From Aggregatilineales bacterium (GTDB lineage Bacteria > Chloroflexota > Anaerolineae > Aggregatilineales > Phototrophicaceae), in the NCBI GenBank assembly GCA_963668265.1, contig OY764157.1, positions 2,568,528 through 2,632,527 on the forward strand: DNA of 64,000 nt, read 5' to 3'. The position numbers and the translations under genes are program-made. The notes beneath the pieces were generated by a model. It worked only from the letters and a program-made list of their open reading frames with translations, did no database searches and was not told the DNA's origin. Positions within the stretch are counted from its first letter, which is position 1. The number at the start of each line of letters is the position of its first letter. This document shows, one piece after another, positions 11,940 through 28,303 of this stretch.

Positions 11940-11967
11940 CTCCTGCCAGCCGCCGGGCGATGCGCCG

Positions 11968-12648: not shown

Positions 12649-12658
12649 GGGCTTGCGC

Positions 12659-13798
12659 TCAGCGCTCCAGCATCTCGCGATACAAAGCCAGCGTTTCGCT
12701 CACGACCCGCTCCAGGCTGAATTCCTCGACCGCAATGGCGCGTCCCCTGGCGCCCATGGCCCGCCGGAGCTCGGGATTCTCGATCAATCTGCGCAGGGCG
12801 TGGCACAAGGCGTCGACATCTCCCGGCGGCGCCAGCAAGCCATTGAGGCCGTGCCGGACGATTTCACGGCAGCCGGGGCTGTCGCTGGCGACGCAGGCGC
12901 GGGCGCAGGCAGCCGCTTCGATCAGGGTCTTGGGCAGGCCTTCGCCATAACTCGATGGCAGGCAGACGATGTGGCTGTCGGCGTAGACCCGGGGCATGTC
13001 GTCGCGCTTGCCCAGCCATTCAATCGCGCCCTCGGCTTGCCAGGCCAGGAGCTGCTCGCCCGGGACATTGAGCGGGCTGGTGGCTTCTTCGTAGCCAACG
13101 ACGCGGAAACGCGCCATCCCGCGCAATCGCCTGGCCGCCGCGACAAAATCGCCGATTCCCTTTTGCCACAGCAGCCGCCCCGCGAAGAGGACGACCGGGA
13201 GCGCATCGCTGTCTTCTGGCTCGGGATGGAAGACGGCCGCGTCGACGCCGGAGCCGCGAATCAAGACGGTCTTGCCCGCTTCCACCAAGCCATTTTCTAC
13301 AAAGTAGCGCTGGTCGTCGGGGTTCTGGAAAAGGACTCGCGTTCGCGCTCCAGCCAAGGCCAGCCGCAGGGCCGGTCGGCTCAATCTGGCGAGCAGCCGC
13401 GCCTTGCGCTCGTCGCTGACGAAGAGGTAGCCCCGTCCGCTCACCGCCTGGACGACGGGCTGCCGATGCCACAAGCGCGCCGCGATGCCGCCGTAGACGA
13501 CCGGCTTGAGGCTGACATGGTGCAGGATATCGGGCCTCAGAGAGCGGTAGAGCCGGCCCAGGGCGACCAGGGTCCGCAGCTCCGCCAGCGGGTTGAGGCC
13601 GTGCTGGCTGAGGGGCAGGGCATGGAAAGGAAAGCCCTCACGCTTGATCTGGCGAATGGACGCCGGGTCAATATCGGCCGTCGCCACATGCGCCTCGTAA
13701 CCAGCGTCGCGCGCCGCCAGCGCCAGCGGCAGCCGATGCGAGACGAAGAAACGCGGAATGTTCACCACATAGAGCAGGCGAGGCTTGGCGTGGCGCAA
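12659..13798 (-). CDS. glycosyltransferase family 4 (GT-B fold)
   Basis: N-terminal RLLYVVNIPRFFVSHRL and C-terminal GEGLPKTLIEAAACARACVAS...GLNGLL (E-x7-E region). Confidence 0.8.
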   Translation of the reverse strand: MRHAKPRLLYVVNIPRFFVSHRLPLALAARDAGYEAHVATADIDPASIRQIKREGFPFHALPLSQHGLNPLAELRTLVALGRLYRSLRPDILHHVSLKPVVYGGIAARLWHRQPVVQAVSGRGYLFVSDERKARLLARLSRPALRLALAGARTRVLFQNPDDQRYFVENGLVEAGKTVLIRGSGVDAAVFHPEPEDSDALPVVLFAGRLLWQKGIGDFVAAARRLRGMARFRVVGYEEATSPLNVPGEQLLAWQAEGAIEWLGKRDDMPRVYADSHIVCLPSSYGEGLPKTLIEAAACARACVASDSPGCREIVRHGLNGLLAPPGDVDALCHALRRLIENPELRRAMGARGRAIAVEEFSLERVVSETLALYREMLER

Positions 13799-15597: not shown

Positions 15598-17250
15598 ATG
15601 CAAGTCCTGCGCGTCGACAAGATCAGCGTCAGTTTCGCCGGCCTTCAGGTCTTTGGCCAGCTGTCTTGGTCGATCAACGCTGGTGATCGGATCGCCTTGA
15701 TCGGACCGAACGGCGCGGGCAAATCGACCTTGCTCTTGACGATGCTGGGCGAAATCGAGCCAGACAGCGGCAAGGTTTTCACCGCGAAGGGGGCGCGTGT
15801 CGGGCATTTGCCGCAGGACATCTCCCTGCCGCCGGATGCGACCCTGCTGCGAACGGCTCTGGTCAAGTCGCGCGAATTGGCGGCGGCGGAAAACCGGCTG
15901 AACGAGATTGAGGCGCGCTTGGCCGACCCGGCCGTATACGGCGACGCGGACGAATTGGCGCGGGCGCTCGCCGACCACGAGGCGCAGCTTGCCCGGTATC
16001 GCAGCATGAACGGCCACCGCTACGAGAGTCGCGCGCGCGAGCTGCTTTCCATGCTCGGTTTCAGCGCGGCTGATCACGGCAGGCGCAACGCCACGCTCTC
16101 GGGCGGCGAGAAGAAGCTGGTGGCCTTGGCGCGTCTGGCGGCGGCGGCGCCGGATCTTCTCTTGCTGGACGAGCCGGACAACCATCTAGATTTGGCGGGC
16201 AAGCGGCGTTTGGAGCGCTTCATCCGCGGCTACCGAGGCGCCGTCGTCATCATCTCCCACGACCGCTATCTGCTCGACAGGGCAGCCAGCCGGACGGCCG
16301 AGCTTGAGGGCGGGCGGCTCACGATTTATCACGGCAATTATTCGCATTACGTCAACGAGCGCGCTCTGCGGCGGCTGCGACAGCGGCAGCAATTTGTGAC
16401 ACAGCAAAAGGAAATCGCCCGCATTGAAGCGATGATCGAGCGATTCGAGCGCTGGGCGAAGCAAGTCTTGAGCCGCAAATACATGCTGGCGGCACGGCAA
16501 AGACGGCGCATGCTGGACAAAATGGAAGAGCGCGGCGAAATCATCGAGCGGGTCGCCGATCAGCGGGTGATGGACTTTAAAGTGGCGGGCTGGCGCGGCA
16601 GCAAGAAACTGCTGGAGCTGAAAAATGTGTCGCTGGCATTTGACGACGAGCCGCTCTTTCTCGATATCAGCCTGCTGCTGCGGCACGGCGAGCGCGTCGG
16701 CTTGATTGGCCCCAACGGCGCCGGCAAGACAGCCCTGCTGCGGCTGATTATGGGCGAGCTGGCGCCCCTGGATGGCGAAATCATCGTGGGTCCAAGCGCG
16801 CGGATTGGCTTCTATTCGCAAGAGCACCAGACCCTGGAAGCCTGGCTCGACTGGACGCCGCTGGAGCTCATCGGCCGGGAGCGCAACAGCAGCGAAGCCG
16901 ACGCGGTGAGTTTCCTCCTGCGCATGGCTTTCAGCTACGACGCGGCGCGGCAGAAGATCCGCACTCTTTCGGGCGGCGAGCGCAGCCGGCTGCAATTGGC
17001 GCTGGTGATGCTGCGCCAGCCCAACCTGCTCATCCTGGACGAGCCGACCAACAACCTGGACATCGCCTCGGTCGAAGCGCTAGAGAAGGCTCTGGACGAC
17101 TTTGACGGCGCCGCCCTCATCGTGTCGCATGACCGCTATTTTCTTGATCAAAGCGTCGACCGCCTGGCGGAGCTGCGCGATGGCGAACTGCGCGAGAGTC
17201 ACGGCGGTTACACGGCCTGGCTGCAGGCGACGGGCGCGCTCGAGGGTTAG
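15598..17250 (+). CDS. ABC-F family ATPase (two NBDs, no TM domain)
   Basis: NBD1 GPNGAGKSTLL / LSGGEKKLVAL / LLLLDEPDNHLD. NBD2 GPNGAGKTALL / LSGGERSRLQLA / LLILDEPTNNLD. The ORF-track extension back to 15055 is antisense to the dipeptidase-like gene. Confidence 0.85.
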   Translation: MQVLRVDKISVSFAGLQVFGQLSWSINAGDRIALIGPNGAGKSTLLLTMLGEIEPDSGKVFTAKGARVGHLPQDISLPPDATLLRTALVKSRELAAAENRLNEIEARLADPAVYGDADELARALADHEAQLARYRSMNGHRYESRARELLSMLGFSAADHGRRNATLSGGEKKLVALARLAAAAPDLLLLDEPDNHLDLAGKRRLERFIRGYRGAVVIISHDRYLLDRAASRTAELEGGRLTIYHGNYSHYVNERALRRLRQRQQFVTQQKEIARIEAMIERFERWAKQVLSRKYMLAARQRRRMLDKMEERGEIIERVADQRVMDFKVAGWRGSKKLLELKNVSLAFDDEPLFLDISLLLRHGERVGLIGPNGAGKTALLRLIMGELAPLDGEIIVGPSARIGFYSQEHQTLEAWLDWTPLELIGRERNSSEADAVSFLLRMAFSYDAARQKIRTLSGGERSRLQLALVMLRQPNLLILDEPTNNLDIASVEALEKALDDFDGAALIVSHDRYFLDQSVDRLAELRDGELRESHGGYTAWLQATGALEG

Positions 17251-18053
17251 CGGCTGGCGCGGATTACGCCGCCAGGAATGACGAAACTAAAGTCGTCGTC
17301 CAGGATCGCCTCCGGCAATTGAAAAGCCCGCTTGAGATCTGCCGGCGCGCCCCGAAACAGGTCCTTGAGCATGCCTTGATTCCGTTGTGGCGTCGCCATC
17401 CGCCGCGTCCAGGCAGCGAAATGCAGGCGCAGCTTGAAACGCAGCAGCACCTCGCAGTTGAAGCCGGCCGCGGCCAGCATGCGCCGCCACTCCGACATGC
17501 GGAAATCGCGCACATGAGAGGGATCGCGCAGCAGCTCCAGAGTCTGCAAGAATGTGTCCTGGGCGTAATTTTCGCTGGCCATGATGTCGCTGAGGAGCAG
17601 GCTGCCGCCGGGTTTGAGCAAGCGCGCGAACTCCGCCAGGGCGCGCTCCGGCTGGCTCCAGTGGTGGGCGCTGTACCGCGTCGTGACGAGGTCGAAGCGG
17701 GCGGGCGCGAAGGGCAAGCGCTCCACATCGGCGAGCTGCGGCGCGACATTTGCGACGCCCCGTTCGCGGACCAGGACCGTCGTCTGATCCAGCATCGCTG
17801 TTGAAAAGTCGCAGGCGATGACCAGCCTGGCCTGCGGCGCGAATGCCAGCGCGGCGTGGCCCGCGCCACAGCCGGCGTCCAGGACGAGCGCGTCGGCCGG
17901 CAGCGCGTCCGCCTCCAGCATCCGCTCGAGGTCGGGTCCCGCGGCGTGCACGCGGCTGCTGCGATAATTCGCGGCGACATCGGCGAAACGCCTTTGCACA
18001 TGATCTTTCACATCTCGCGGAGTCGCCTCGCGCATAGTTGACCTTTCCGCCAT
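17247..18053 (-). CDS. class I SAM-dependent methyltransferase
   Basis: Motif I VLDAGCGAGHAALAFA, post-I VIACDFS, and LKPGGSLLLSD. Confidence 0.8.
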   Translation of the reverse strand: MAERSTMREATPRDVKDHVQRRFADVAANYRSSRVHAAGPDLERMLEADALPADALVLDAGCGAGHAALAFAPQARLVIACDFSTAMLDQTTVLVRERGVANVAPQLADVERLPFAPARFDLVTTRYSAHHWSQPERALAEFARLLKPGGSLLLSDIMASENYAQDTFLQTLELLRDPSHVRDFRMSEWRRMLAAAGFNCEVLLRFKLRLHFAAWTRRMATPQRNQGMLKDLFRGAPADLKRAFQLPEAILDDDFSFVIPGGVIRASR

Positions 18054-18354: not shown

Positions 18355-21300
18355 TTGAAACGCTATTTCAATGTAAAGAATTACGCGCGCACGCCGGAGA
18401 TTCAGGAGCTGCCCTCGCTGATTGACATCCAGAAGCGGTCTTTTGAAGACTTCTTCTACGGTGGGCGGCTCAAAGAGCTCTTCGACGAGATCAACCCAAT
18501 CGAGAGCTTCAACGGCAATCTATCGCTGTACTTCCCGGGCAACAATCCGGAGGCGGAAGAATTCGACTTTCGCGAGCCGCCGGCCGAGCATCACCCCTAC
18601 CGGCTGCTCAGCAAGAGCGCCCGGCCCAAAAAGGGCTTGCAGATTTACATGCAGATGCCCAAGTACGACGAGGACGAGTGCATTGAGCGCGACATGTCGT
18701 ATTCCGCGCCGCTGTATGTCCAGGTGGCCATGGTCAACCACGAGCAGGGCGACGAGATCATCCGCCAGAATATCTTCCTGGGCGAGTTCCCGCTGATGAC
18801 CCAGCAGGGCACCTTCATCATCAACGGCACGGAGCGAGTCGTCGTCAGCCAGTTGATTCGCTCGCCCGGCGTGTATTTCGACGCGGAAGAAGAGCGCGCC
18901 ACCGGCCGCACTCTCAGCAACGCCAAGCTCATCCCCGATCGCGGCGCCTGGATGGAATTCGAGACTCGCAAGACGGATTACATCACCATCAAGTTCAACC
19001 GCAAGCGCACCATCCCGGTGACGGTGCTGCTGCGCGCGCTGGCGGCTGTCGAAGATGGCTTGCCCAAGACCAAATCGCCCATCAAGAGCGGCGAGGACGA
19101 CGAGATCCGCAAGCTCTTCGCCGATGTGGACAACAACGAGGCGCACCGTTACATCGAAAGCTGCATCAAGAACGAGCCGAACTGGGAGCCGAAGAAGAAA
19201 CAGACGATCGCGGAAACGGCTCTGATCGAGTTTTACAAGCGCATGCGCCCGGGCGACCCGCCCACCCTGGATAACGCCCGCGAATATCTCGAGAGTCAGC
19301 TCTTCGACCAGCGGCGCTATGACCTGGAGCGGGTGGGGCGCTACAAGCTGAACCAGCGGCTGGGCTTGCAGGATGTCGTCGATCTCTCGCATCGCACGAT
19401 CGCCAAAGCCGACATCGTCAAGCTGGTCGAGCAGATGATCCTCATCAACAACGGCAAGCGCGCCAAAGACGACATTGACCACCTGGGCAACCGCCGCGTC
19501 AAGACCGTCGGCGAGCTCATCGGCAACAAGCTGCGCATCGGCTTGCGGCGCATGGAGCGGGTCGTCAAAGAGCGCATGTCCATCCGCGAAGCCGAGCAGC
19601 TGACGCCGGTCTCGCTGGTCAACATCCGCCCGATCGTGGCCGCTGTGCGCGAATTCTTCGGCTCGTCCCAGCTTTCGCAATTCATGGAGCAGACGAACCC
19701 GCTTTCGGAGCTGCGGCACAAGCGCACCTTGTCCGCTCTCGGTCCCGGCGGCTTGCGGCGCGAGCGGGCCGGCTTTGATGTGCGCGATGTGCACCACAGC
19801 CATTATGGTCGCATCTGCCCTATCGAGACGCCGGAGGGCCCAAACATCGGGCTCATCGGCCGGCTGGCCAGCTACGCCCGGGTCAACGACCTGGGTTTCA
19901 TCGAGACGCCCTACCGCAAAGTGGCGTCGGCTCTGGAGCTGGAAGATCCGCGCTTGCCCGGGCGGCTGCTGGGCGACGATGTGGAAGTGGAGCTGATTCT
20001 GGAGAGCGGCACCGAGATTGACGCGCCAGTCCTGGAACGGCTGCGTCTCTTCGGCGACGCCGTCGGCGATGTGCCCGTCCTGGCGAAGAACGACGCCGTG
20101 TACGCCGCCTACGCGCGCATCGCTGAATTGAGCGGCGACGAGAGCCTGGCGGAGACTCAGCGCGACTTTGAAGAATTCGCCCGCAGAGCCAATGGCGAAT
20201 ACGCCCGGCTGGATAGCGCTGTCTTCGAAATGCGCTTGAAGGGCAATGCCTTTGACTGGGACGAAGCCGGGCGCTGGCAGGAGCTCTTCCGTCGGCGGCT
20301 GGGCGAGATCGCCGATGTCTACGACGCCTATGGCGCGGCGCGGCGTGAACTGGAAGTGGCTGTGGCGCGCTTGCGCCGCGTCGTCGAATTGCCCGCCGAG
20401 CAAGAAGCGGCCGCCGATCGCATCCTGGCGGTGATGGCTGGCTACGGCGACGAACGCCCGGCCCTGGAACAGGCGCTGCGCAACTTCAACAATGCTCTCG
20501 TCGAGATCGCCGCGCTGGAGAGCGACGACATACCCAAGAACCTGCGCGATCGGCTCGGGCGCTGGGGCAAGCGGCTGGTCAATTTCCCGCCGCAATTGAA
20601 GGCGGTCTTGTCCAACCAAGCGATCGCCCGGGAATCGCTGGCGACTCTCGCCAAAGCCGACGCCCTCAGCGAAGAGGTCATCGTCTTCCGGCCTGTCGGC
20701 GACGACTTGCTGGGCGAACAGCTCGGCAAGAGCCTCAGCTGCGAAGCCATCATCCTGGACGAGGGCGACGCCATCGACGAGGCCGCGCTGGATGTGGCGC
20801 GACGCCACGGCCTGCTGGAGCTGCCGGTCGCGCCTTTCGCCACCCGCGAGATCGCCTACCTTTCGGCGGACGACGAAGACCGCTTCATCATCGCCCAAGC
20901 CAACGCCCGCCTGGACGAGCGCGACCAATTCATCTCCAATCGCGTCTCGGCTCGTCACGAGCAAGGCTTCTTGACGACGGCGCCGCGGAGCATCGATTAC
21001 ATGGATATCGCGCCGCGACAAATCGTCGGCATCAGCGCCGCCTTGATCCCCTTCCTGTCGCACGACGCCGCCAACCGCGCCTTGATGGGCTCGAACATGC
21101 AGACCCAGGCCGTGCCCCTGCTGCAGCCGGATGTCTCCGTCGTCAGCACCGGCATGGAGAGCCAGGCGGCTTACAACAGCGGGCAAGTGCTCGTCTCCGA
21201 GGTCGAGGCGGAAATCCTCAGCGTGCAGGGCCACCGCGTCATCGCGCGCAAAAAAGACGGCGAAGAAATCGCTTTCCTGCTGCGCAAATACGAGCGCTCC

Positions 21301-23118
21301 AATCAGTCGACCTGCATCGACCAGCGGCCCGCCGTGCGCAAGGGCGACTGGATCAAGCCGGGCGATGTCATCGCCGACAGCTCGTCGACCTACAACGGGC
21401 ATCTGGCGCTGGGCCACGATGTGCTGACCTGCTTCCTGTCCTGGGACGGCGGCAATTATGAAGACGCCCTGCTGGTCAGCGAAGACATGCTGCGCAACGA
21501 CAAGTTCACCAGCATTCACATCGAGAAGCACGAGATTGAAGCCCGCGACACCAAGCTGGGTCCCGAAGAGATCACTTACGACATCCCCAATGTCGGCGAA
21601 GAAGCGCTCAAAGACCTGGACGAGCACGGCATCGTGCGCATCGGCGCCGAGGTGGGACCAAACGACATCCTCGTCGGCAAGATCACGCCCAAGGGCGAAA
21701 AAGAGCTGTCGCCGGAAGAGAAACTGCTGCGGGCGATCTTTGGCGAGCAGGCCCGCGAAGTGAAAGATTCGTCGCTGCGGCTGCCGCATGGCGATCGCGG
21801 CAAGGTGATTGACGTCAAAGTTTTCACCCGCGACGAGCACCCGGACCTGCCGGCCGGCGTCGAGAAGATGGTCCGCGTCAGCGTGGCGCAGCGCCGCAAG
21901 CTCACCGTCGGCGACAAAATGGCGGGGCGGCACGGCAACAAGGGCGTCATCTCGAAGATCGTTTCCGTGGCTGATATGCCTTATGTCGATGGCGGCTTGC
22001 CAGTCGAGATCATCCTGAACCCCCTGGGTGTGCCCAGCCGCATGAACATCGGGCAGATCCTTGAGCTGCATCTGGGCTGGGCGGCCGACCGTCTGGGCTT
22101 CCGCGCCGTCACCCCCGTGTTCGACGGCGTCCAGGAACAAGAGATCCAGGCTGAACTGGGCCGAGCCTGGCTTATCGACTGGGCCTGGCAGCGGACCACC
22201 GAGCGCGCCTGGGAAGATCACGAGCGTCTGGCGGGCAGGGCGGGCATCACCCGCGAAGAATTCGACGACGACATGCATGTCATCTGCGCCTACCTGGTGG
22301 ACCGGGTCGGCGACTCCGGCCGCTATGACAACGAAGCCATCATCCTCGAGCGCGACGAGATTTTCGTGCGGCGCGTCGCCGTGGCGGAGATGCTGCGCGA
22401 ACAAGGCTACGACCCGGACGAGGTCATGGTCTACGACAACAGCGAAGTCTCCATTGAAGAGCGCGACAAGCGAGACAAGAACGCGGTCGAAGCGTCGATT
22501 CGCCTCTGGATCGCCGAGCACCGCGCGAGCGAGCTGAAGCTGGCGGATTCGCTGTCGACGCGCGAGCTCTTCAATATCGCCGACCGCATCATGTTCGAGA
22601 CGGGGCAGCCCGTGCCGCATTACGGCAAGATGACCTTGTACGACGGCCGCACGGGAGAGCCCTTTGACCGGCCGGTCGCCGTCGGGTATGTGCACATGCT
22701 GAAACTGGCGCACCTGGTGGAGGACAAAGCCCACGCCCGCTCTACGGGTCCCTACAGTCTGGTAACGCAGCAGCCTCTGGGCGGCAAGGCGCAGTTCGGC
22801 GGGCAGCGTTTCGGCGAGATGGAAGTCTGGGCGCTGGAGGCTTATGGCGCGGCGCATATCTTGCAAGAGATGCTCACCGTCAAATCGGACGATGTGCAGG
22901 GCCGCGTCAAGACTTACGAGAGCATCGTCAAAGGCGAGCCGATCGAAGAACCGGGCATCCCGACGAGTTTCCGCGTGCTGGTCAAAGAGCTGCAGAGCCT
23001 GGGCTTGTCGGTGGAAGCCATCACCGGCGCCGGCGATGTCATTCACTTCGGCAAGTACGACGAGCAGACTCGCCGCCCGCAGCCAGAAACCGGCTTGCTG
23101 GGCCTCCGCTCTGGCTAA
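18355..23118 (+). CDS. rpoB: DNA-directed RNA polymerase subunit beta, unusually long (1587 aa)
   Basis: TTG start 7 nt after AAGGAG (18342-18347). Rif region [34 protein letters not shown], then [34 protein letters not shown] and [10 protein letters not shown]. Confidence 0.95.
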
Positions 23119-23146
23119 GGGGCGCCGCGGCTAAGCTGTACGGCGG

Positions 23147-23179
23147 GGCGCGGGCACAGTCTCGCGCCTCTTTTCTTTT
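23147..23179 (+). terminator. intrinsic terminator after rpoB
   Basis: Stem GGCGCGGG/CTCGCGCC (8 bp including one G-U), loop CACAGT, followed by TCTTTTCTTTT. Confidence 0.55.
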
Positions 23180-23226
23180 GGCGTCGAACAAGTCTCGGCG
23201 GAAATCTGGATGGGGAGGGGCGGTCA

Positions 23227-24360
23227 GTGCGCGCCAAGCTGCTCACAGCGCTCGCGGCGGTCCTCCTCACTGTAGTCGCCCTGGAGCTAGGCCTGCGCTA
23301 TTACCTCGGCCACCATGGCGATGAGCGGCAGAAAGTCTTCTATCTGTATTCGCGCGAAGAGATTCAGCAGCGGGCGTCGCTCCTGCAGGGCTTGGCGTTC
23401 CTGAATTATGGCTTGACGCCGGACCGTGGCGATGTCAACAGCCTGGGCTATCGCGGCGAGGAAATCGCGCAGCCGAAACCAAGCGGCGTCTACCGCATCG
23501 TCGCCCTTGGCGGATCGACGACATACGGCTTGTTCCTCGACGAATGGTGGCTGACTTACCCGGGCCAGCTCCAGAGTATGCTCCGCAGCGACTACGGCTA
23601 CGAACATGTGGAAGTGATCAACGCGGGCGTGCCCCAGTACTCCACTTGGGAATCGGCGGTGAATCTGCTGCTGCGCGTGCCGGATCTGGCGCCGGACATG
23701 GTCATCGTCTACCACGCCATCAACGATGTCGGCGTGCGGCTGAGCGACCCGGAGTTTTACGACGGGCTGGACACGAGCAACGGTTACTGGCGCGAAGCGG
23801 ATTATCCGCTGCCGCCCAGCGTGCTGCTGCGCTATGGCTTGCGCAAGCTGGGCAACGACCTCGACATCGCCTATTCCTTGAACACGGTCTTTCGCGGTCC
23901 GGCGGGCGCGCGCAGCTGCGAGCCGGATCACAGCGGGCCGGAAACGGTCTGCCGCGGCTTTGGCATGACAGCCCGCGAGACCCTGGCAGCCAATCCGCCA
24001 GTCTACTTCGAGCGCAACCTGCGCAACATGATTTTGCTGGCGCGGGGCATGGGCGCAAGGCCGCTGCTGCTCACCTGGTCCTACTCGCCGCTGGATTTCC
24101 CCATCGAGGGCGGCGGCGGCATGGTCCACGCGCACCTGCGCGAAGGAGCGGACGAACACAACGCCATCATTCGCCGGGTCGCCGAAGACGAAGCGACTCT
24201 GTTCTATGATTTGGCGGCGTCGATGCCGACTGAGGAAGCGTACTGGGTCAACGGCATTCACATGAAAGCGACCGGCACGGGGGAGATGGCGCGGCAGCTG
24301 GCGGCTTACCTCGATTCTACGGGGATACTGGCGCCTGGGGCTGGGGCGGGCGCGGATTAG
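23227..24360 (+). CDS. membrane-anchored SGNH/GDSL-like hydrolase
   Basis: GTG start after GGGGAGGGG. N-terminal TM LLTALAAVLLTVVAL. Block I-like IVALGGSTTYG, block III-like YHAINDVG, block V-like NGIHM. Confidence 0.6.
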   Translation: MRAKLLTALAAVLLTVVALELGLRYYLGHHGDERQKVFYLYSREEIQQRASLLQGLAFLNYGLTPDRGDVNSLGYRGEEIAQPKPSGVYRIVALGGSTTYGLFLDEWWLTYPGQLQSMLRSDYGYEHVEVINAGVPQYSTWESAVNLLLRVPDLAPDMVIVYHAINDVGVRLSDPEFYDGLDTSNGYWREADYPLPPSVLLRYGLRKLGNDLDIAYSLNTVFRGPAGARSCEPDHSGPETVCRGFGMTARETLAANPPVYFERNLRNMILLARGMGARPLLLTWSYSPLDFPIEGGGGMVHAHLREGADEHNAIIRRVAEDEATLFYDLAASMPTEEAYWVNGIHMKATGTGEMARQLAAYLDSTGILAPGAGAGAD

Positions 24361-25142
24361 CTGAAGCGCTGTTCGCGCGCGCGATCCAGCACGGCGCGGA
24401 CGATCTCGCGAAGCTCCGCCTCGGGATAATGCTGTGGCAGCAGCGCCGAGCCGGGACCCGTGGCCGGGAAGCGCTTTTGCAAGGTCTTCGGAATCAGCTC
24501 AAATCCAGGTTTGCCGCGTCCAGATTTGGCAAGCGCTTCTCGGACCTCGGGCGACTGTCGCCTAAGCCATCTCAAGACAGCGCGCCGCAGCTGAATGGAA
24601 CGCAGCGCAGAGCGACGGTACAGTTGGTTGGCGTTATTGAAATTCCAGCCGAAGACTTCGCCCGCGTCGTGCAGTTGCTGGTGTCGCAGCCAATAGCCAA
24701 TTTCGAGGAAGTCGTAAAGGCGGTCAAGTCGCTTTGAGTTGCGATTCGTTCGCCATTGCTTTTTTCGGCTGGGAATCAGCGCCCGCCAGCGCGGCTCTCG
24801 CTCGAGGTCGTGGCAGACGCCATGCCAGGCTTTGGCGGTCAGGGCCTGCCAGAGCAGGAAGCGCTCTTCGCCCTGCATCGCCTCGTGCCGCAGGATGCCG
24901 CTGATGTGAACCGCGCGCCCCAGAACCCAGACCTGCTCGAAGGAATTGAAGCGCGGCTTGTCGTCCTTACGCGCGGTGATGAGAGTGAGCGCGTGCCAAG
25001 CCATGTCGAGCAAGTCGTCCAGACGTTGGTCGAGGGCTTCGGCCGCGTCGCGGTGTTCCTCGGCGCTGATGAAGTAGGGGCGCCCCGTGCGGACGACGCT
25101 GCCGAGGACGCCGTCGCTGTCGCTCCAGATGAGGGCGGGCAT
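24357..25142 (-). CDS. hypothetical protein C of the orphan operon (261 aa, Arg/Trp-rich, apparently helical)
   Basis: Uninterrupted ORF. Its ATG shares one base with the stop of the upstream gene (TAATG at 25140-25144). No family recognised. Contains RHQQLH (an R-x4-H string). Confidence 0.6.
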   Translation of the reverse strand: MPALIWSDSDGVLGSVVRTGRPYFISAEEHRDAAEALDQRLDDLLDMAWHALTLITARKDDKPRFNSFEQVWVLGRAVHISGILRHEAMQGEERFLLWQALTAKAWHGVCHDLEREPRWRALIPSRKKQWRTNRNSKRLDRLYDFLEIGYWLRHQQLHDAGEVFGWNFNNANQLYRRSALRSIQLRRAVLRWLRRQSPEVREALAKSGRGKPGFELIPKTLQKRFPATGPGSALLPQHYPEAELREIVRAVLDRAREQRFS

Positions 25143-26746
25143 TAGGATGCCTCCAGGTTGAAGATCTCGAGCATGATCGCGACCGTTTCGCGGCGAGTCT
25201 GTCCGAATTCGGTGGCCGATTCCTTTAGTTCGCGGCTCAATTGTTCCAGCTTTCGGACATAGCGTTCTCTGAGCGGGTCTGTCTCATCGCCGCTTTCGTC
25301 AAGCAGCTGCTGGAAGTTGCCTTCATCATTATTGCCTTCCAGCGGCCGCATCGCCCACTCAAGCAGGCCGTGCGCGCTGACTTCGGCGATGAAGGCGTTT
25401 TTGCCTTGCAAGGGTCGGCGCTGGCGCTGCACATCGCGTAACTCTTGGCGCAGCGGGTAGTCAGCGGCGTATATCAGCTCTGTCAGATCGGCGTTCATCT
25501 TCCACATTTCAATCTGCTTTCCACTGTGGTCAGGCTTGATTTCGAAGGGCAGATCATTCTGCTTCCTGCTTGGATCCTGCTGAAAGTAGAATATATCGCT
25601 GCTGTAAGCGACGCGTTCACCATCTTCGGCAAAGAGTTTAGCCTTCAACTGGTATTTCCCAACTGACTCGGGCATCCGCAGCTGTCGGATTCCGTCCAAA
25701 GGCAGAGGCGCGTTCTTATTCGGATCCAAGAGCTGGAGTCTCTCCAAAAGCAGTGTCTGCGGTCGTGGCGCGTCGCCGGCGGGCGTCGCATCCAGTTCGA
25801 TCGGCGACTTTCGCTCCAGGGTCTCATCTTCCAGAAACGCGTTGAACAGAAACTTGCCTGCCTCGACCGCGCGATTGCGGGCGAAGACATGGATGAGCAG
25901 GGTCTCGCCATGGTCGACCCGTTTCTTTTCGCCGTCGCTATTGTTGACCGCTTTCGCAGACAAGGTTACTGGCCTTTTCGCTGGTGGGGGCGGCGGCTCA
26001 GTCTGCACATACAGCGACCGGGAAGCGGATTTGAGGCGGGTCTCGCCGCGCGCGACTGTCGCACGCAGCTTGTATTCGCCCGGTTCGGAACACGCGATCT
26101 GCTGACTGTGACTCGCTTTGCCGCGAATGATCTGCCAAGCGCCGAGGTCAACTTGCTGTCGAGCGCGTCCATTGTGCCATTCGGGCTTGATCGCGCCCTG
26201 TTTGCGCGCCAGGACCTCGCTGTTGCCGTCGGAGTCGACACATTCCAGAAGCAGGTCGGCGGCGGCGGTCAGCTCATTGGCTGGCTCAAACTCAATTTCG
26301 GCGCACACATTTCGCACCGACTGACCCCAATCGACGCGCGCGCTGGCTGGAGCGGGATATTCGAGATTAAGCTGAGCCTCCCAGATGATGCCTGGGTTGT
26401 CCGCGCCCGGCTGTGACCCATTGCGTCTCTGCTTCCGCCCATTCGGATTCAAGAATGTCTCCAGGAATCGCGTATGCGTCCGTCGTTCGCGCTCGCTGAC
26501 CGGCTCAACGGAGATCGGTCGGGCGGCTTCCCAGCCCATTGCCGCGCTGAACTCTCGAACCTTGTCATCCAAAGCGCCGTCAATCTGGCGGACGATACCC
26601 TTTTCTTGCCATGATTTAGTTCCCTTCCGCCAATATGGCCAACTCTCGCTTCCGCCGCGAGCCGACATTCCGCGAATCGGGAAAATCCGTCCGCAGCGCA
26701 TAGAATCCCTTGCTGGCGGGGCGGACGAAGCGCTTTTCCGCTTCAT
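25142..26746 (-). CDS. hypothetical protein B of the orphan operon (up to 534 aa; start uncertain)
   Basis: Long ORF with lower GC. In-frame ATGs at 26746, 26701 and 26668 overlap gene A; the ATG at 26539 does not. Contains two similar beta-strand-rich modules, a PPPPP linker and a helical acidic C-terminus. Confidence 0.6.
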   Translation of the reverse strand: MKRKSASSAPPARDSMRCGRIFPIRGMSARGGSESWPYWRKGTKSWQEKGIVRQIDGALDDKVREFSAAMGWEAARPISVEPVSERERRTHTRFLETFLNPNGRKQRRNGSQPGADNPGIIWEAQLNLEYPAPASARVDWGQSVRNVCAEIEFEPANELTAAADLLLECVDSDGNSEVLARKQGAIKPEWHNGRARQQVDLGAWQIIRGKASHSQQIACSEPGEYKLRATVARGETRLKSASRSLYVQTEPPPPPAKRPVTLSAKAVNNSDGEKKRVDHGETLLIHVFARNRAVEAGKFLFNAFLEDETLERKSPIELDATPAGDAPRPQTLLLERLQLLDPNKNAPLPLDGIRQLRMPESVGKYQLKAKLFAEDGERVAYSSDIFYFQQDPSRKQNDLPFEIKPDHSGKQIEMWKMNADLTELIYAADYPLRQELRDVQRQRRPLQGKNAFIAEVSAHGLLEWAMRPLEGNNDEGNFQQLLDESGDETDPLRERYVRKLEQLSRELKESATEFGQTRRETVAIMLEIFNLEAS

Positions 26747-27155
26747 CCCGCCGATTGTCGTCCTGGATCATCCGCGCCACCAGCGAAGCGGCCGCGTCCT
26801 TACCACGGATGACCGCGCCACGCCGCTGCAGCTCCTCCGCCAGGTCGCGGTAGTGCATCGGCTCTGCCTGGCGCTCTCGCAGCACCGTCTCCGCCATGTC
26901 CAGCAGCTCGGCCGTGGGCGTCGCCCCGGGCTTGCCCCGCGCTCGCCGCCGTGCCGGTTCGCCATCCGATGGCGCCTCGAGCGACAGCAAAGCCTCGACA
27001 TGCCCCAGCCGCGCTTCCATTATCCGTCGCTCCCGCTCCTTGACCTCAATCTCCTTGTCAAGACCATCGATCGCTTCTCGCAGGCGTTCACGCTCGCGCT
27101 GCAACGACATGTCAAAGTCTCGACGTTGATCCGGGCCATTTTGTGTTGCTGTCAT
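26616..27155 (-). CDS. coiled-coil plus HARE-HTH (winged helix) DNA-binding protein A of the orphan operon
   Basis: AGGAG 6 nt before the ATG. Charged heptad-like N-terminus (LQRERERLREAIDGLDKEIEVKERERRIMEARL). C-terminal LDMAETVLRERQAEPMHYRDLAEEL...GKDAAASLVARMIQD...RFVRPASKGFYALR fits the HARE-HTH pattern. Confidence 0.6.
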   Translation of the reverse strand: MTATQNGPDQRRDFDMSLQRERERLREAIDGLDKEIEVKERERRIMEARLGHVEALLSLEAPSDGEPARRRARGKPGATPTAELLDMAETVLRERQAEPMHYRDLAEELQRRGAVIRGKDAAASLVARMIQDDNRRDEAEKRFVRPASKGFYALRTDFPDSRNVGSRRKRELAILAEGN

Positions 27156-27188
27156 TGTCTGCTCCTGTTATCTATCTGCGTTCGTATG

Positions 27189-27217
27189 ATAATATATTAT
27201 GACGAAGCAGGAGTCAA
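27189..27217 (-). promoter_or_regulatory. candidate sigma-70 promoter of the orphan operon (TTGACT-N17-TATTAT)
   Basis: Read on the minus strand: -35 at 27217-27212 and -10 at 27194-27189, about 35 nt upstream of the gene A ATG, inside an AT-rich spacer. Confidence 0.4.
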
Positions 27218-27264
27218 GTATTGTATTATGCGTACATTATGATTTCATCAACAAGACTGTTATG
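27196..27264. repeat. four copies of (A/G)TTATG in the AT-rich spacer
   Basis: ATTATG at 27196-27201, 27225-27230 and 27236-27241, and GTTATG at 27259-27264. The second and third copies are 11 bp apart. Confidence 0.6.
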
Positions 27265-27392
27265 AGTATTGTCTAGCTCGCGTGGGGCGGAGGCGAGGCT
27301 CTGGCGGCGCGGGAATTCGAGGGATCGTCCGAGTCATTCTGGCGGCTCGCCGCCGGTCGCGAATCGGCCGACCAAATCAACTTCAGTCTTGC

Positions 27393-27421
27393 TTGATTTT
27401 GCGGCAGTTGTGTGCTAACCT
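27393..27421 (+). promoter_or_regulatory. candidate nuo operon promoter (TTGATT-N17-TAACCT with TGn extended -10)
   Basis: TTGATT at 27393-27398 and TGcTAACCT at 27413-27421, 47 nt before the nuoA ATG. Confidence 0.4.
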
Positions 27422-27467
27422 CACTGCAACTTGGATTGTTCCAAAAAGCACAAATGGCTGAACGCTG

Positions 27468-27830
27468 ATGTCGACCGTCCTAGAATTCGGGCCCGTGACC
27501 GCCCTGCTGGTCATTTCCGTGGTCTTGGCGCTGATCATCGCCAACATCTCCCGCGTGATGGGTCCGCGCCGGCCGAGCTACCGCAAGTCCGTGCCCTACG
27601 AGAGCGGCATGAAGCCGATCGGGCCCGCCACCCGCCGCCTGCCGGTCAAGTTCTACCTGGTCGCCGTCCTCTTCATCATCTTTGACATTGAAGTAATCTT
27701 CTTCTTGCCCTGGGCGGTCTCCATGCGCGATTTGGGCGTCTACGGGCTGGCGGTGATGGCGGTCTTCACCCTCATTCTTGTCGTCGGCTTCGTCTATGAA
27801 TGGAAGAAAGGCGGTCTGGAATGGGAGTAA
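27468..27830 (+). CDS. nuoA: NADH-quinone oxidoreductase subunit A
   Basis: YESGMKPIG...[22 protein letters not shown]. First gene of the nuo cluster. Confidence 0.9.
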
Positions 27831-28303
27831 GCTCAAAGCTGGGCAACCTTGGCGTTGTGACCACCACCCTGGAGCAAGCCGTCAACTGGGGGCGCACGGG
27901 CGCGATGTGGCCCCTGCTCTTTGGCTTGGCATGCTGCGCCATTGAATACATGAGCTCGCAAGCCTCAAGCTACGATTTGTCGCGCTTTGGCATGGAGCTG
28001 AACCGGGCGACGCCGCGCCAGGCGGATCTGCTCATCGTCTCGGGCCGCCTGACCCGCAAGATGGCGCCGGTCGTGCGTCAGCTCTACGACCAAATGGCGG
28101 AACCGAAGTGGGTCATTTCCATGGGCGACTGCGCTTCTTGCGGCGGCGTCTACAACAATTACGCTATCGTCCAGGGCGTGGACGAGATCATCCCGGTCGA
28201 TGTCTATATCGCCGGCTGCCCGCCGCGCCCCGAACAGCTGCTGCATGGCATCTTGACGCTTCATGAAAAAGTCCGGGCAGAGCGCATCCCAGATTGGGCC
28301 TAG
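27821..28303 (+). CDS. nuoB: NADH-quinone oxidoreductase subunit B
   Basis: [21 protein letters not shown] and GCPPRPE (N2 cluster ligands). ATG 27821 overlaps the nuoA stop. An alternative ATG lies at 27800. Confidence 0.9.

What the first reader, a model, noticed from the sequence alone, without database searches (positions are those of the whole stretch)
24357..27217. Orphan three-gene operon wedged between rpoB and nuo (HARE-HTH protein, 465-534-aa beta-rich protein, 261-aa helical protein): best candidate for an undescribed system
There are three minus-strand ORFs, and I can place only one domain. Protein A (27155-26616) has a charged coiled-coil-like N-terminus and a C-terminal HARE-HTH-like winged helix. 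That module is known from RNAP delta N-termini and from many restriction or DNA-modification-linked proteins. B and C are unrecognisable to me. B and C are translationally coupled (TAATG at 25140-25144). Gene A has its own AGGAG and a TTGACT-N17-TATTAT promoter in a strikingly AT-rich spacer. Gene C ends tail-to-tail on the SGNH gene stop (24357-24360). I see no NTPase, nuclease, methylase, integrase or transposase motif. My hand counts of 25141-25260 and 25441-25560 give about 51-53% G+C, below the neighbouring core genes. Everything else for about 20 kb on either side is housekeeping.
Basis: partly seen in the sequence, partly recalled or inferred. Interest (0 to 1): 0.7.

Follow-up and report, generated by a model that had tools for sequence, protein, structure and literature searches.

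The report
Truncated GHKL-ATPase conflict module remnant
The three genes are real and belong to an undescribed, fast-evolving three-gene module of Chloroflexota, probably a DNA-directed immunity system, but this genome has lost the gyrase-like (GHKL) ATPase half of the central protein, so the window holds a crippled copy.

Summary
The reading as an orphan, NTPase-less system needs correction.

- **Gene B is a remnant.** About 50 homologues are 850-900 aa long. They carry an N-terminal GHKL plus S5/transducer ATPase (Topo VI-B/GyrB-like fold) ahead of the Ig-like and helical part that survives here. In the window, homology starts 10 nt after the stop codon of A, and the ATPase half is absent from all 64 kb.
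- **The trio travels together.** A (HARE-HTH), B and C co-occur, in that order, in 47 of 56 species-level Chloroflexota genomes. Twenty-one sit at this nuoA/rpoB locus. Twenty-seven sit in other contexts, including between IS copies and next to a Type ISP restriction enzyme.
- **B is a swapped cassette.** Genomes about 96% identical in their flanks drop to 45-75% identity exactly over B, and sometimes C.
- **B and C have a wider family.** At least 504 metagenomic loci hold a related pair, and 29 of 77 have a C5 DNA methylase within 5 kb.
- **C has no match.** It gives a confident model with no known fold.

No curated library (Pfam, NCBIfam, PADLOC, PHROGs) recognises B or C. Verdict: a decayed member of an uncharacterised paraMORC-like, probably restriction-like, conflict module. 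Function is inferred, not shown.

The parts
27189..27217 (-). Promoter-like site TTGACT-N17-TATTAT upstream of gene A, in the A-proximal, AT-rich half of the nuoA/A divergent spacer.
   Evidence: 10 of 12 matches; 5 sites found against 0.9 expected from shuffles. (spacer 49.4% G+C). TTGAC / TAtaAT-like pairs recur at this position in relatives, although the sequence itself is not conserved.
27162..27166 (-). AGGAG ribosome-binding site of gene A.
   Evidence: Read from the sequence.
26616..27155 (-). Gene A, 179 aa: N-terminal charged heptad-like helix, C-terminal HARE-HTH winged helix (residues 85-147, nt about 26715-26903) and a basic tail. Intact compared with homologues.
   Evidence: alignment A3, with invariant L92 P99 M100 Y102 ... 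R145 P146 G150 Y152. (79 homologues, all in Chloroflexota-type contigs that also carry B and C).
26606..26615 (.). Deletion junction. This is the 10 nt between the stop of A and the first residue of B that is homologous to full-length family members. Relatives carry a roughly 65-nt spacer plus about 1.16 kb encoding the GHKL-S5 ATPase here.
   Evidence: tblastn: P0005 residues 387-410 match 26605-26534; P0006 residues 396-872 match 26596-25151; nothing for residues 1-386 anywhere in the window. (gene layout in L001).
25142..26605 (-). Gene B remnant. It corresponds to residues about 387-874 of the roughly 870-aa family protein: linker helices, Ig-like beta-sandwich domains (about 25580-26390) and the C-terminal helical bundle (about 25145-25415). 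The open frame runs up to 26746, overlapping A. The first ATG within the homologous part is at 26539 (465 aa).
   Evidence: There is no frameshift or stop. Window-branch changes are 8 nonsynonymous to 25 synonymous.
25140..25144 (-). TAATG: the B stop overlaps the C start (translational coupling).
   Evidence: The same tight junction is seen in relatives and in the wider B'-C' family, where most gaps are -4 to +14 nt.
24357..25142 (-). Gene C, 261 aa: an N-terminal beta-hairpin followed by an all-helical domain, an acidic first helix (S26 E28 E29 R31 E35 D38 D42 invariant) and an invariant F225-P226..G229..G231-S232..L235-P236-Q237 stretch (consensus RFPAxGPGSALLPQHY). The fold is unmatched.
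   Evidence: 108 homologues. (alignment A2). (pLDDT 88.5, pTM 0.85). (no PDB or BFVD match). (hhalign to the C' family, probability 95.3%, E=2.2e-8).
24357..24360 (.). 4-nt overlap of the convergent stop codons of C and the SGNH/GDSL hydrolase gene (23227-24360, + strand).
   Evidence: The SGNH gene is present in only 9 of 21 syntenic relatives, so it is not part of the module.

Best explanation
The locus is an N-terminally truncated copy of a conserved three-gene module, A-B-C, found in Chloroflexota.

**The intact module in relatives**
- A is a coiled-coil HARE-HTH DNA-binding protein.
- B is a roughly 870-aa protein. It has a GHKL ATP-binding domain plus an S5/transducer domain, the same ATP-gated dimerising module as Topo VI-B, GyrB, MutL and MORC. 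Linker helices, Ig-like beta-sandwich domains and a C-terminal helical bundle follow.
- C is a translationally coupled helical partner of about 260 aa with a new fold.

**Inferred mechanism**
- A targets the complex to DNA, possibly reading its modification state.
- B acts as an ATP-gated clamp or switch. Its variable Ig-like and linker region, together with C, forms the specificity or effector platform.
- The module works as a restriction-like conflict system of the paraMORC kind.
- B, and sometimes C, is exchanged between strains as a cassette by recombination in the conserved flanks.

**In this window**
- A deletion of about 1.2 kb removed the spacer and the whole ATPase module.
- What remains is A, an ATPase-less B (Ig-like plus helical part) and C, still behind A's promoter.
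- This copy most likely cannot run the ATP-dependent step.

**Shown:** gene structure, homology, domain folds, the deletion, co-occurrence, the cassette pattern and the methylase linkage of the wider family.

**Inferred:** the defence function, the roles of A, B and C, and the loss of function here.

**Confidence by layer:** that this is a truncated member of the A-B-C family, about 0.9; that the family is a conflict/defence system, about 0.55. The single figure given is for the whole statement.
For: **Family architecture and the deletion**
- Forty-eight of the 60 homologues of B found are over 700 aa, mostly 850-900 aa, and the query covers only their C-terminal half.
- The N-terminal half carries conserved GHKL motifs: E35..N39..D42, D75xG77xxG80 and G121xR123G124Q125G126K127, all at 90% conservation or more.
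- The AlphaFold model of P0006 has pLDDT 82.9.
- Its N-terminal half matches Topo VI-B (1mx0, 2zbk), GyrB (3zkd, 5l3j) and ParE (4url) at E about 1e-7 to 1e-6. The middle matches FnIII/MG-type beta-sandwiches.
- tblastn finds no trace of residues 1-386 in the window, and homology starts at 26605.
- A is intact.

**Co-occurrence**
- A, Bn (the N-terminal ATPase half of B), Bc (its C-terminal half) and C all occur in 47 of 56 species-level genome loci. All are Chloroflexota, from records labelled Anaerolineae, Aggregatilineales, Phototrophicaceae or Dehalococcoidia.
- Twenty-one loci are at the nuoA/rpoB position and 27 are elsewhere, across many unrelated contexts.

**Conflict-like signatures**
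- Cassette replacement. L001 and L144 are 95-98% identical over 22 kb, except for 58-76% over B-C. L012 and L042 are about 96% identical, except for 45-55% over B.
- Pairs with nuoD at 99% or more have Bc at only 32-54%.
- Two B lineages only about 33% identical occupy the same locus.
- dN/dS is 0.15-0.3 for A, B and C, against 0.03 for nuoB.
- Decay is repeated and independent: L054, L022, L055, L041, L051, an IS21 insertion in L047, and nonsense splits in L015 and L004.
- In L025 the trio lies between inverted 1.7-kb IS copies.
- A Type ISP R-M enzyme is adjacent in L050 and L037. An SNF2 helicase replaces C in L033. DUF2130 follows C in L004, L019 and L026.

**Wider family**
- Proteins of about 670 aa (B') match B at hhalign probability 100%, E=1.4e-69.
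- In 69 of 77 loci B' is followed directly by C'. C' is homologous to C (probability 95.3%, E=2.2e-8).
- Within 5 kb, 29 of 77 loci have a C5 DNA methylase (PF00145, DrmMII/MTase_II-like) and 24 of 77 have an HhH-GPD enzyme.

**Literature**
- GHKL-S5 (MORC/paraMORC) ATPases are predicted R-M components linked to cytosine methylases and Vsr (PMC2292703).
- A paraMORC3-type protein, VcSduA, is an experimentally shown anti-phage system (PMC12137116).
- HARE-HTH derives from R-M contexts (PMC3417536).
Against: - No nuclease or other effector domain is recognisable in A, B or C.
- No methylase, HhH-GPD or DUF2130 homologue of the B'-linked types lies in the window or within 10 kb of the Chloroflexota loci by tblastn.
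- In 21 species the trio sits at a fixed position between core genes, not in a defence island. This fits long vertical inheritance.
- Composition is only mildly atypical.
- The family was not found on plasmids or phages and has no PHROG match.
- The PADLOC match is weak and partial. It covers only the GHKL motifs of the candidate PDC-M33A.
- The methylase plus glycosylase linkage of the B'-C' family could equally point to a MutL-like repair role.
- The truncated B still shows a purifying-selection pattern (8 nonsynonymous to 25 synonymous on the window branch, against 12 to 31 on the sister branch). The remnant may therefore still be useful, or the deletion may be recent.
- The deletion rests on a single assembly.
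Confidence: 0.55

Rival explanations
1. Lineage-specific housekeeping module. A MORC/MutL-like ATPase with a HARE-HTH partner organises the nucleoid or assists transcription in these Chloroflexota, which would explain the fixed position beside rpoB and nuo. The window copy would then be a variant that has dispensed with the ATPase.
For: - The position between nuoA and rpoB is fixed in 21 species-level genomes.
- Four Dehalococcoidia loci again have nuoB/nuoD 1-2.5 kb downstream of C.
- HARE-HTH is also the N-terminal domain of RNA polymerase delta (weak TIGR04567 match).
- A, B and C are under purifying selection.
- No effector domain was found.
Against: - Near-identical genomes carry B alleles only 32-54% identical, with sharp recombination boundaries. 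Housekeeping machinery does not behave this way.
- The module has been lost or broken independently many times.
- Twenty-seven complete trios lie in unrelated contexts, some with IS elements or restriction enzymes.
- A scores 15.4 against a cut-off of 42 for RNAP delta. It also has the opposite domain order and a basic rather than acidic tail.
Confidence: 0.15
2. DNA-repair accessory. B and C are a MutL-like matchmaker pair working with cytosine methylation damage, as in very-short-patch-type repair of T:G mismatches. This would explain the link of the wider family to a C5 methylase plus an HhH-GPD glycosylase. HARE-HTH would replace that link in Chloroflexota.
For: - B'-C' lies within 5 kb of a C5 methylase in 29 of 77 loci and of an HhH-GPD enzyme in 24 of 77.
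- MutL is a GHKL-S5 protein that works with Vsr in very-short-patch repair (discussed in PMC2292703).
- No nuclease is present in B or C.
Against: - Methylase plus mismatch-nicking pairs are standard accessories of restriction systems, and something must fill the restriction slot.
- Some B' loci carry Hjc-like or DUF2130 nuclease-type genes.
- The hypervariable cassette pattern and frequent decay in Chloroflexota do not fit a repair factor.
- The Chloroflexota loci have no adjacent methylase or glycosylase.
Confidence: 0.12
3. The window copy is still a working system. Either the ATPase half is encoded elsewhere in the genome as a separate polypeptide, as in split relatives, or A, truncated B and C act without ATP.
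For: - Natural split forms exist with the break in the same linker. L015 has an in-frame stop at MG*Q, and its C-terminal half, P0046, is seen on 11 contigs. L004 has an in-frame stop. L045 is also split there, by a frame change.
- The remnant ORF is intact, with 8 nonsynonymous to 25 synonymous changes on its branch.
- A, the promoter, the RBS and the B-C coupling are all intact.
Against: - In all split relatives the ATPase half is still encoded immediately upstream. Here nothing resembling it lies in 64 kb.
- The conserved GHKL motifs imply that ATP turnover is central to the family.
- The purifying signal may simply predate a recent deletion.
Confidence: 0.15
4. Assembly or gene-calling artefact. 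The 1.2-kb gap in B is a collapse in a single metagenome assembly, and the real genome has a full-length B.
For: - The window's proteins each occur on one contig only.
- Several related long assemblies show obvious frameshift noise (L061).
Against: - The junction is clean. A's C-terminus and stop are intact, and B homology resumes in frame at a domain boundary.
- Other genomes show comparable real deletions at different points (L022, L054, L055).
Confidence: 0.05

Closest known systems
MORC / paraMORC GHKL-S5 ATPases of restriction-modification-like operons (Iyer, Abhiman and Aravind 2008, PMC2292703)
   Same: - An N-terminal GHKL domain with all ATP-binding motifs, followed by an S5/transducer domain.
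- The wider B'-C' branch sits beside cytosine-5 methylases and a mismatch-nicking enzyme.
- Occasional SNF2 helicase, Hjc-like or DUF2130 partners.
- Sporadic distribution and frequent loss.
   Different: - Not detected by any Pfam HATPase model.
- The MORC-specific S5 motif GhXhhpXXRhl is not matched as written. The consensus is GIQxLRGSQWI, with Q where R is expected.
- B carries Ig-like beta-sandwiches and a helical bundle instead of a nuclease, TIR or coiled coil.
- It has an obligate new-fold partner, C, and a HARE-HTH partner, A.
- The window copy lacks the GHKL-S5 part altogether.
VcSduA / Shedu type I-D (paraMORC3: GHKL ATPase fused to a DUF4263 PD-(D/E)xK nuclease), an experimentally shown anti-phage system (PMC12137116)
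   Same: A GHKL ATPase proposed to gate an effector, with a predicted dimeric clamp-like middle domain, in a conflict context.
   Different: - No DUF4263 or any other nuclease domain is present in B or C.
- It is multi-gene rather than single-gene.
- No PADLOC Shedu hit.
Topoisomerase VI-B / GyrB / ParE / MutL ATPase modules
   Same: These are the best structural matches for residues 1 to about 390 of full-length B (1mx0, 2zbk, 3zkd, 4url, 5l3j; E 7e-8 to 2e-6). They share the ATP-gated dimerisation architecture.
   Different: - No Toprim, Spo11-like or MutL C-terminal nuclease partner.
- No sequence-level match to any PDB chain.
- C is not Topo VI-A-like.
PADLOC candidate system PDC-M33 (component A)
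   Same: The only defence-library model that touches the family. P0321 scores E=6e-14. Full-length B scores E=6e-6.
   Different: The match covers only 40-85 residues around the GHKL motifs of a 627-position model. C and C' have no PADLOC hit at E<=0.001; one C' (L063) touches PDC-S02 only at E=0.005. The window's B does not match it at all.
HARE-HTH proteins: RNA polymerase delta subunit and restriction-enzyme-fused HARE-HTH (Aravind and Iyer 2012, as cited in PMC3417536)
   Same: A has a bona fide HARE-HTH domain. The domain is typical of R-M-linked proteins and is proposed to read DNA modification.
   Different: - A is not RNAP delta. TIGR04567 scores 15.4 against a cut-off of 42.
- The HARE-HTH is C-terminal, preceded by a coiled coil and followed by a basic tail.
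- It is not fused to a nuclease.

Membership tests
GHKL (Bergerat-fold) ATPase superfamily | Motif I (ExxxNxxD), motif II (DxGxG) and motif III (GxxGxG) in the protein encoded in this window | tested here: not met
   Window B starts at the equivalent of residue about 387. tblastn with residues 1-410 of P0005 and P0006 finds no N-terminal domain anywhere in the 64 kb.
GHKL (Bergerat-fold) ATPase superfamily | The same motifs, and the fold, in full-length homologues of B | tested here: met
   E35, N39, D42, D75, G77, G80, G121, R123-K127 are at least 90% conserved in alignment A1. Foldseek matches Topo VI-B, GyrB and ParE at E about 1e-7 to 2e-6.
MORC / paraMORC (GHKL + S5 in R-M-like operons) | S5/transducer domain directly after the GHKL domain | tested here: met
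   This holds for full-length homologues only. The model's alpha/beta domain at 246-392 aligns with the transducer of Topo VI-B and GyrB 43K fragments. It is absent in the window copy.
MORC / paraMORC (GHKL + S5 in R-M-like operons) | MORC-specific S5 motif GhXhhpXXRhl (PMC2292703) | tested here: not met
   The A1 consensus GIQxLRGSQWI (residues 331-341) has Q, not R, at the ninth position. The B' consensus is GIAxxRxGMKV. Both were read by eye.
MORC / paraMORC (GHKL + S5 in R-M-like operons) | Detection by the Pfam HATPase_c / HATPase_c_3 models | tested here: not met
   No HATPase family appears at E<=1 for P0005, P0006 or P0057, or at E<=0.01 for eight B' proteins.
MORC / paraMORC (GHKL + S5 in R-M-like operons) | Conserved neighbourhood with DNA methylase, Vsr-type enzyme, SF2 helicase or nuclease | tested here: inconclusive
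   Met for the distant B'-C' branch: C5 methylase in 29 of 77 loci and HhH-GPD in 24 of 77. Only sporadic for the Chloroflexota trio: SNF2 in L033, Type ISP in L050 and L037, DUF2130 in three loci. Not met in the window.
PADLOC PDC-M33 | Match over most of the PDC-M33A profile and presence of its partner genes | tested here: not met
   Only 40-85 residues of a 627-position profile are matched. Window A and C have no PADLOC hit and window B only two faint PDC-S26 matches (E 0.011 and 0.027, about 25 residues). C' proteins have no hit at E<=0.001; one (L063) touches PDC-S02 at E=0.005.
HARE-HTH (PF05066) | Score above Pfam's gathering threshold | tested here: met
   A scores 41.7 bits against 25.9, at residues 85-147. 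Seventy-seven of the 79 homologues carry the precomputed PF05066 hit.
RNA polymerase delta subunit (RpoE, TIGR04567) | Score above the NCBIfam cut-off; N-terminal HARE-HTH plus an acidic C-terminal tail | tested here: not met
   A scores 15.4 bits against a cut-off of 42. The HARE-HTH is C-terminal and is followed by a basic RRRR-type tail.
Classical restriction-modification system | A cognate DNA methyltransferase and a recognisable endonuclease in the locus | tested here: not met
   No family hit for a nuclease or methylase in A, B or C. No homologue of the B'-linked methylase or glycosylase in the window. That test used only those query families.
Mobile genomic island | Integrase, transposase or repeat boundaries, atypical composition and variable insertion sites | tested here: inconclusive
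   Window: no mobility gene was examined beyond the trio; B has GC3 0.685 against 0.77-0.86 for its neighbours. Relatives: fixed site in 21 species, but 27 trios elsewhere. One lies between inverted IS copies (L025) and one is IS21-disrupted (L047).

The most novel reading that the evidence does not exclude
A-B-C would be a previously unrecognised family of prokaryotic immune systems.
- A HARE-HTH DNA reader would work with a GHKL-S5 ATP-gated clamp that carries Ig-like arms.
- A partner protein of a new fold, C, would supply the effector or specificity function.
- The B (and sometimes C) cassette would be swapped between strains at a fixed chromosomal site.
- Its distant B'-C' relatives next to C5 methylases would then be a new kind of restriction module that lacks any canonical nuclease.
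- The ATPase-less copy in this window could even be a naturally selected decoy or regulator rather than debris.
Probability: 0.4. Interest if true: 0.75.

Novelty: new variant of a known kind. Interest (0 to 1): 0.55.

Why it matters
If the inference holds, the module adds an uncharacterised branch to the GHKL/MORC-type conflict systems, the prokaryotic relatives of eukaryotic MORC chromatin ATPases.
- It has a partner protein, C, whose confident model matches no solved or viral predicted structure.
- It has a HARE-HTH component that may read DNA modification.
- The wider B'-C' pair is common in environmental metagenomes (at least 504 loci in one scan) and is tied to cytosine methylases. No curated library names it, so current defence-finding pipelines would miss it.
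- The sharp allele-replacement troughs over B, in genomes otherwise about 96% identical, give a natural system for studying cassette exchange in uncultured Chloroflexota. Many of the MAG names suggest sponge or coral hosts, but that reading rests on my own knowledge of those bin names.

For this particular window the practical message is more modest. The copy is truncated, and intact relatives such as L001 or L144 are the ones to test.

Tried and rejected
- **Curated family libraries.** Pfam, NCBIfam, PADLOC and PHROGs scans of A, B, C, full-length B, B' and C' gave only HARE-HTH for A, plus partial hits to PDC-M33A (weak for B, stronger for one B').
- **PDB by sequence.** Profile searches with the B, C and B' alignments gave nothing.
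- **Fold of C.** Foldseek of the C model against PDB and BFVD gave a best E of 2 and 0.8.
- **RNA families.** Rfam on 23000-28000 gave no match.
- **Plasmids and phages.** tblastn of B and B' proteins against the plasmid collection, and of one B' protein against the phage collection, gave nothing.
- **Upstream partners of B'.** I tested whether the small or HTH proteins upstream of B' (clusters 4, 5, 8, 9, 12) are divergent A homologues. hhalign probability was at most 1.4%, so this was rejected.
- **Methylase near the Chloroflexota trios.** I looked for a methylase, glycosylase or DUF2130 of the B'-linked types in the window and near the trios and found none.
- **Secreted adhesin reading of B.** Rejected. 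Relatives carry a cytoplasmic ATPase on the same polypeptide. I also see no N-terminal hydrophobic signal-like segment in the sequence.
- **A as RNAP delta.** Rejected.
- **C as a HEPN-type RNase.** I looked by eye for a conserved Rx4-6H motif in alignment A2 and found none.
- **The 911-aa upstream neighbour in the archaeal locus L063.** It has no PDB relative.
- **Literature.** Searches for a described HARE-HTH plus GHKL system, and for PDC-M33, found only general reviews.

Full report
**1. Observation**

A is 26616-27155 (179 aa). B is 25142-26746 as the longest ORF (534 aa), or 465 aa from the ATG at 26539. C is 24357-25142 (261 aa).

A carries a Pfam HARE-HTH domain at residues 85-147, E=1.5e-10 and above the gathering score. 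B and C hit nothing significant in Pfam, NCBIfam or PADLOC.

The sequence features were all verified:
- TTGACT-N17-TATTAT lies at 27217-27189.
- AGGAG lies at 27166-27162, the TAATG stop/start overlap at 25144-25140, and the 4-nt convergent stop overlap with the SGNH gene at 24357-24360.
- The two G+C hand counts are right: 53.3% and 50.8%.

B is 58.7% G+C with GC3 0.685, against GC3 0.77-0.86 in the neighbouring core genes. A and C are nearer host values. The same offset is seen in relatives.

**2. Gene B is the C-terminal half of a much larger protein**

A search of 5.8 billion proteins with B found 60 relatives. Forty-eight are over 700 aa, mostly 850-900 aa, and the window protein aligns only to their C-terminal part.

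The extra N-terminal stretch of about 390 residues carries the GHKL ATPase motifs: EPVQNALDA, DTGTTGL and GSRGQGKSAF. These are at least 90% conserved across 31 full-length members.

An AlphaFold model of a full-length member (P0006, pLDDT 82.9) shows these parts:
- a GHKL domain at residues 1 to about 245;
- an alpha/beta transducer (S5) domain at about 246-392;
- linker helices;
- Ig-like beta-sandwich domains at about 466-735;
- a C-terminal helical bundle at about 790-873.

Foldseek matches the N-terminal half to Topo VI-B (1mx0, 2zbk), GyrB (3zkd, 5l3j) and ParE (4url). It matches the middle to FnIII, macroglobulin and transglutaminase-type sandwiches. No PDB chain is detectable by sequence.

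In the window, homology to full-length proteins begins at residue about 387-396, which is nt 26605-26596. That is 10 nt after A's stop at 26616. No trace of residues 1-386 exists anywhere in the 64 kb. A itself is full-length and conserved to its C-terminus.

The closest B (81% identity, L061) and all other syntenic relatives still have the full gene.

**3. The trio is a conserved unit**

A scan of one genome per GTDB species found 56 loci. All are in Chloroflexota MAGs, labelled Anaerolineae, Aggregatilineales, Phototrophicaceae or Dehalococcoidia. Many bin names (APA, CAR, COS, RHO, SB066x, Plut) are ones I recognise as sponge or coral metagenome bins. That is my own knowledge and was not tested.

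tblastn with the window proteins gave these counts:
- 47 of 56 loci have A, Bn (the N-terminal ATPase half of B), Bc (its C-terminal half) and C, in that order.
- 21 loci have the same nuoA | A-B-C | (SGNH) | rpoB arrangement as the window.
- 27 complete trios lie elsewhere.

ORF clustering shows that the non-syntenic flanks are mostly unique to each locus. Notable neighbours:
- a Type ISP restriction-modification enzyme directly upstream (L050, L037);
- DUF2130 directly after C (L004, L019, L026);
- an SNF2 helicase in place of C (L033);
- an IS21 insertion inside B (L047);
- inverted 1.7-kb IS copies bracketing the trio (L025).

The genes do co-occur in varied contexts. In this lineage, though, they also occupy a fixed site between core genes.

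**4. B behaves as an exchangeable, fast-evolving cassette**

Among syntenic genomes, NuoD and NuoB are 91-100% identical. A is typically 55-75%, C 65-70% and Bc about 50-60%. Pairs with nearly identical backgrounds are the telling cases:

| Pair | NuoD | A | Bn | Bc | C |
|---|---|---|---|---|---|
| L001 vs L144 | 100% | 99% | 68% | 54% | 70% |
| L012 vs L042 | 99% | 91% | 40% | 32% | 92% |

Sliding-window DNA identity makes this explicit. The flanks are 95-98% identical. Sharp troughs fall exactly over B-C (58-76%) in the first pair, and over B alone (45-55%) in the second.

Two B lineages only about 33% identical occupy the same locus. The minority lineage (L042, L048, L060) is closest to the B of a trio located elsewhere (L026, 43%).

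The window shows the converse mosaic with L061: Bc 81% (dS 0.54) but A 51% (dS 2.1) and C 68%.

dN/dS is 0.15-0.3 for A, B and C, against 0.03 for nuoB.

Decay is frequent and independent:
- L054 keeps only the last 140 or so residues of B, plus C.
- L022 lacks Bc residues 140-485.
- L055 lacks Bn residues 175-249.
- L041 and L051 are truncated.
- L015 and L004 have in-frame stops in the same S5-to-helix linker where the window deletion ends. L045 is also split there, but by a frame change.

**5. A wider family gives the functional lead**

A profile of full-length B scored against 1.84 billion representatives found 366 proteins. They include a second tier of proteins of about 660-700 aa (B'), which match the GHKL, S5, linker and first Ig domain (hhalign probability 100%, E=1.4e-69).

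A metagenome scan found at least 504 such loci, of which 80 were fetched. ORF clustering of these, plus L062 and L063, gave these results for the 77 loci that contain B':
- In 69 of 77, B' is followed directly by a protein of about 225-240 aa (C'). The junction is mostly -4 to +14 nt.
- The C' alignment matches the C alignment at hhalign probability 95.3%, E=2.2e-8, over 191 columns. The B-C pair of the window is therefore a divergent branch of a widespread two-gene module.
- Within 5 kb, 29 of 77 have a C5 cytosine methylase (PF00145; best PADLOC hits DrmMII and Type II MTase).
- Within 5 kb, 24 of 77 have an HhH-GPD enzyme (PADLOC 'Type II nicking endonuclease'), and 21 have both.
- Less frequent partners are a small protein of 72-93 aa upstream (23 loci), DUF2130, an Hjc-like nuclease and HTH_17 proteins.
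- One instance lies in a complete archaeal chromosome, next to two C5 methylases and an HhH-GPD gene (L063). Another lies among bacterial housekeeping genes (L062).
- None of the upstream partners is homologous to A. The HARE-HTH gene is specific to the Chloroflexota branch.

**6. Comparison with what is known**

The theme matches the MORC/paraMORC radiation of GHKL-S5 ATPases. Iyer, Abhiman and Aravind inferred that these act in restriction-modification operons together with cytosine methylases, Vsr-type enzymes, SF2 helicases and nucleases (PMC2292703, PMC3417536). One such protein, the paraMORC3-type VcSduA, has since been shown to protect against phage (PMC12137116). HARE-HTH is likewise described as derived from R-M systems (PMC3417536).

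Membership in a named family is not established:
- No Pfam HATPase model detects B or B'.
- The MORC-specific S5 motif is not matched as written (consensus read).
- The only defence-library hit is a partial match to the candidate PDC-M33A, confined to the GHKL motifs.
- NCBIfam and PHROGs give nothing.
- C has a confident model (pLDDT 88.5, pTM 0.85) with no structural neighbour in PDB or BFVD, and no PDB sequence relative.
- A is not RNA polymerase delta: 15.4 bits against a cut-off of 42, the opposite domain order, and a basic tail.

**7. Most likely mechanism and its status**

Shown:
- the architecture of the three proteins;
- the ATP-motif conservation;
- the tight B-C coupling;
- co-inheritance with A;
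- the cassette exchange;
- the methylase linkage of the wider family;
- the deletion in this window.

Inferred:
- A binds DNA and may read its modification state.
- B is an ATP-gated dimeric clamp or switch. Its variable linker and Ig-like region, with C, provides specificity or the effector.
- The module acts as a restriction-like conflict system.
- The window copy, lacking the ATP gate, cannot perform the ATP-dependent step.

Two points weigh against calling the remnant dead. Its ORF is intact, and changes on its branch are 8 nonsynonymous to 25 synonymous, similar to the sister branch at 12 to 31. Natural split forms also show that Bc can exist as a separate polypeptide. Either the deletion is recent, or the remnant retains a role, or a separate ATPase half lies outside the window.

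Against the defence reading overall:
- There is no recognisable effector.
- There is no adjacent methylase in Chloroflexota.
- The site is fixed between core genes in 21 species.
- The family is absent from the plasmids and phages searched.

A MutL-like repair role and a nucleoid or transcription role remain possible. Both fit the allele-replacement and decay patterns poorly.

**8. Verdict**

What is present is a decayed member of an uncharacterised three-gene module built around a paraMORC-like GHKL-S5 ATPase. The module belongs to a large, unannotated B'-C' family linked to cytosine methylases. I rate it a new variant of a known kind (GHKL-ATPase conflict systems). It has a new-fold partner and an unusual cassette-exchange pattern. 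Interest is moderate for this window and higher for the family.

Noticed in passing
window about 19990-20750 (within rpoB, 18355-23118); L001, L144: rpoB carries a helical insertion of about 250 aa (residues about 545-800). The insertion is absent from L144 rpoB (1315 aa). L144 is otherwise 97% identical (1279/1315) to L001 rpoB, which has a 313-aa insert at the same site. The window and L001 inserts are only about 25-29% identical. This makes a second hypervariable, present-or-absent segment about 4.5 kb from the trio. The window also has a private 23-aa insert near residue 72.
   Followed up: partly
window 27390-27457 (nuoA upstream region): The nuoA-proximal half of the divergent spacer is almost invariant across 15 syntenic genomes. 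Conserved blocks are CCATTTGTGCTTTTTGGAACAA at 27436-27457 (11-32 nt before the nuoA ATG), GAGATTAGCA and CAAAATCAAGCAAG. This is probably the nuo promoter or leader. The A-proximal half is AT-rich but not conserved in sequence. There is no Rfam match.
   Followed up: partly
window 23227-24360 (SGNH/GDSL hydrolase gene): The SGNH gene between C and rpoB is present in only 9 of 21 syntenic species-level relatives, so it is itself a variable insert at this locus.
   Followed up: partly
L025:4649-6367 and 15689-17407: In one Dehalococcoidia MAG the A-B-C trio (9520-13269) lies between inverted 1719-nt copies (96% identical) of a DDE-transposase IS element, in a composite-transposon-like arrangement. 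In L047, B is interrupted by an IS21-type element about 4 kb long.
   Followed up: partly
L033:10001-15685; L050:5542-8670; L037:4260-7613: L033 has a full-length B with no A and no C, followed directly by an SNF2 helicase (SNF2-rel_dom + DUF3670). This echoes the MORC-SNF2 operons in the literature. L050 and L037 have a Type ISP restriction-modification enzyme immediately upstream of the trio.
   Followed up: partly
L015:11150-11420; L004:9850-10120; window 26539-26615: Independent breaks of B fall in the same S5-to-helix linker. L015 has an in-frame stop (MG*Q) exactly at the MGW that begins the window's 465-aa ORF, and its downstream half, P0046, is seen on 11 contigs. L004 has an in-frame stop about 20 codons upstream. 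The window's deletion ends there too. This suggests that a split at this domain boundary is tolerated.
   Followed up: partly
L062-L143 (metagenome and genome loci): A widespread, unannotated two-gene module was found in at least 504 metagenomic stretches. It pairs a GHKL-S5-Ig protein of about 670 aa with a partner of about 230 aa. It is frequently flanked by a C5 DNA methylase and an HhH-GPD 'nicking' enzyme, and often preceded by a conserved protein of 72-93 aa with no family match.
   Followed up: partly
L031, L032, L038, L044: In four Dehalococcoidia-type loci the trio is again near a nuo operon: nuoB/nuoD lie 1-2.5 kb downstream of C on the same strand. In L031, L032 and L038 a translin-like gene lies between them, and in L032 and L044 an H+-pyrophosphatase lies upstream. 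Whether this second nuo linkage is ancestral synteny or coincidence is unresolved.
   Followed up: no
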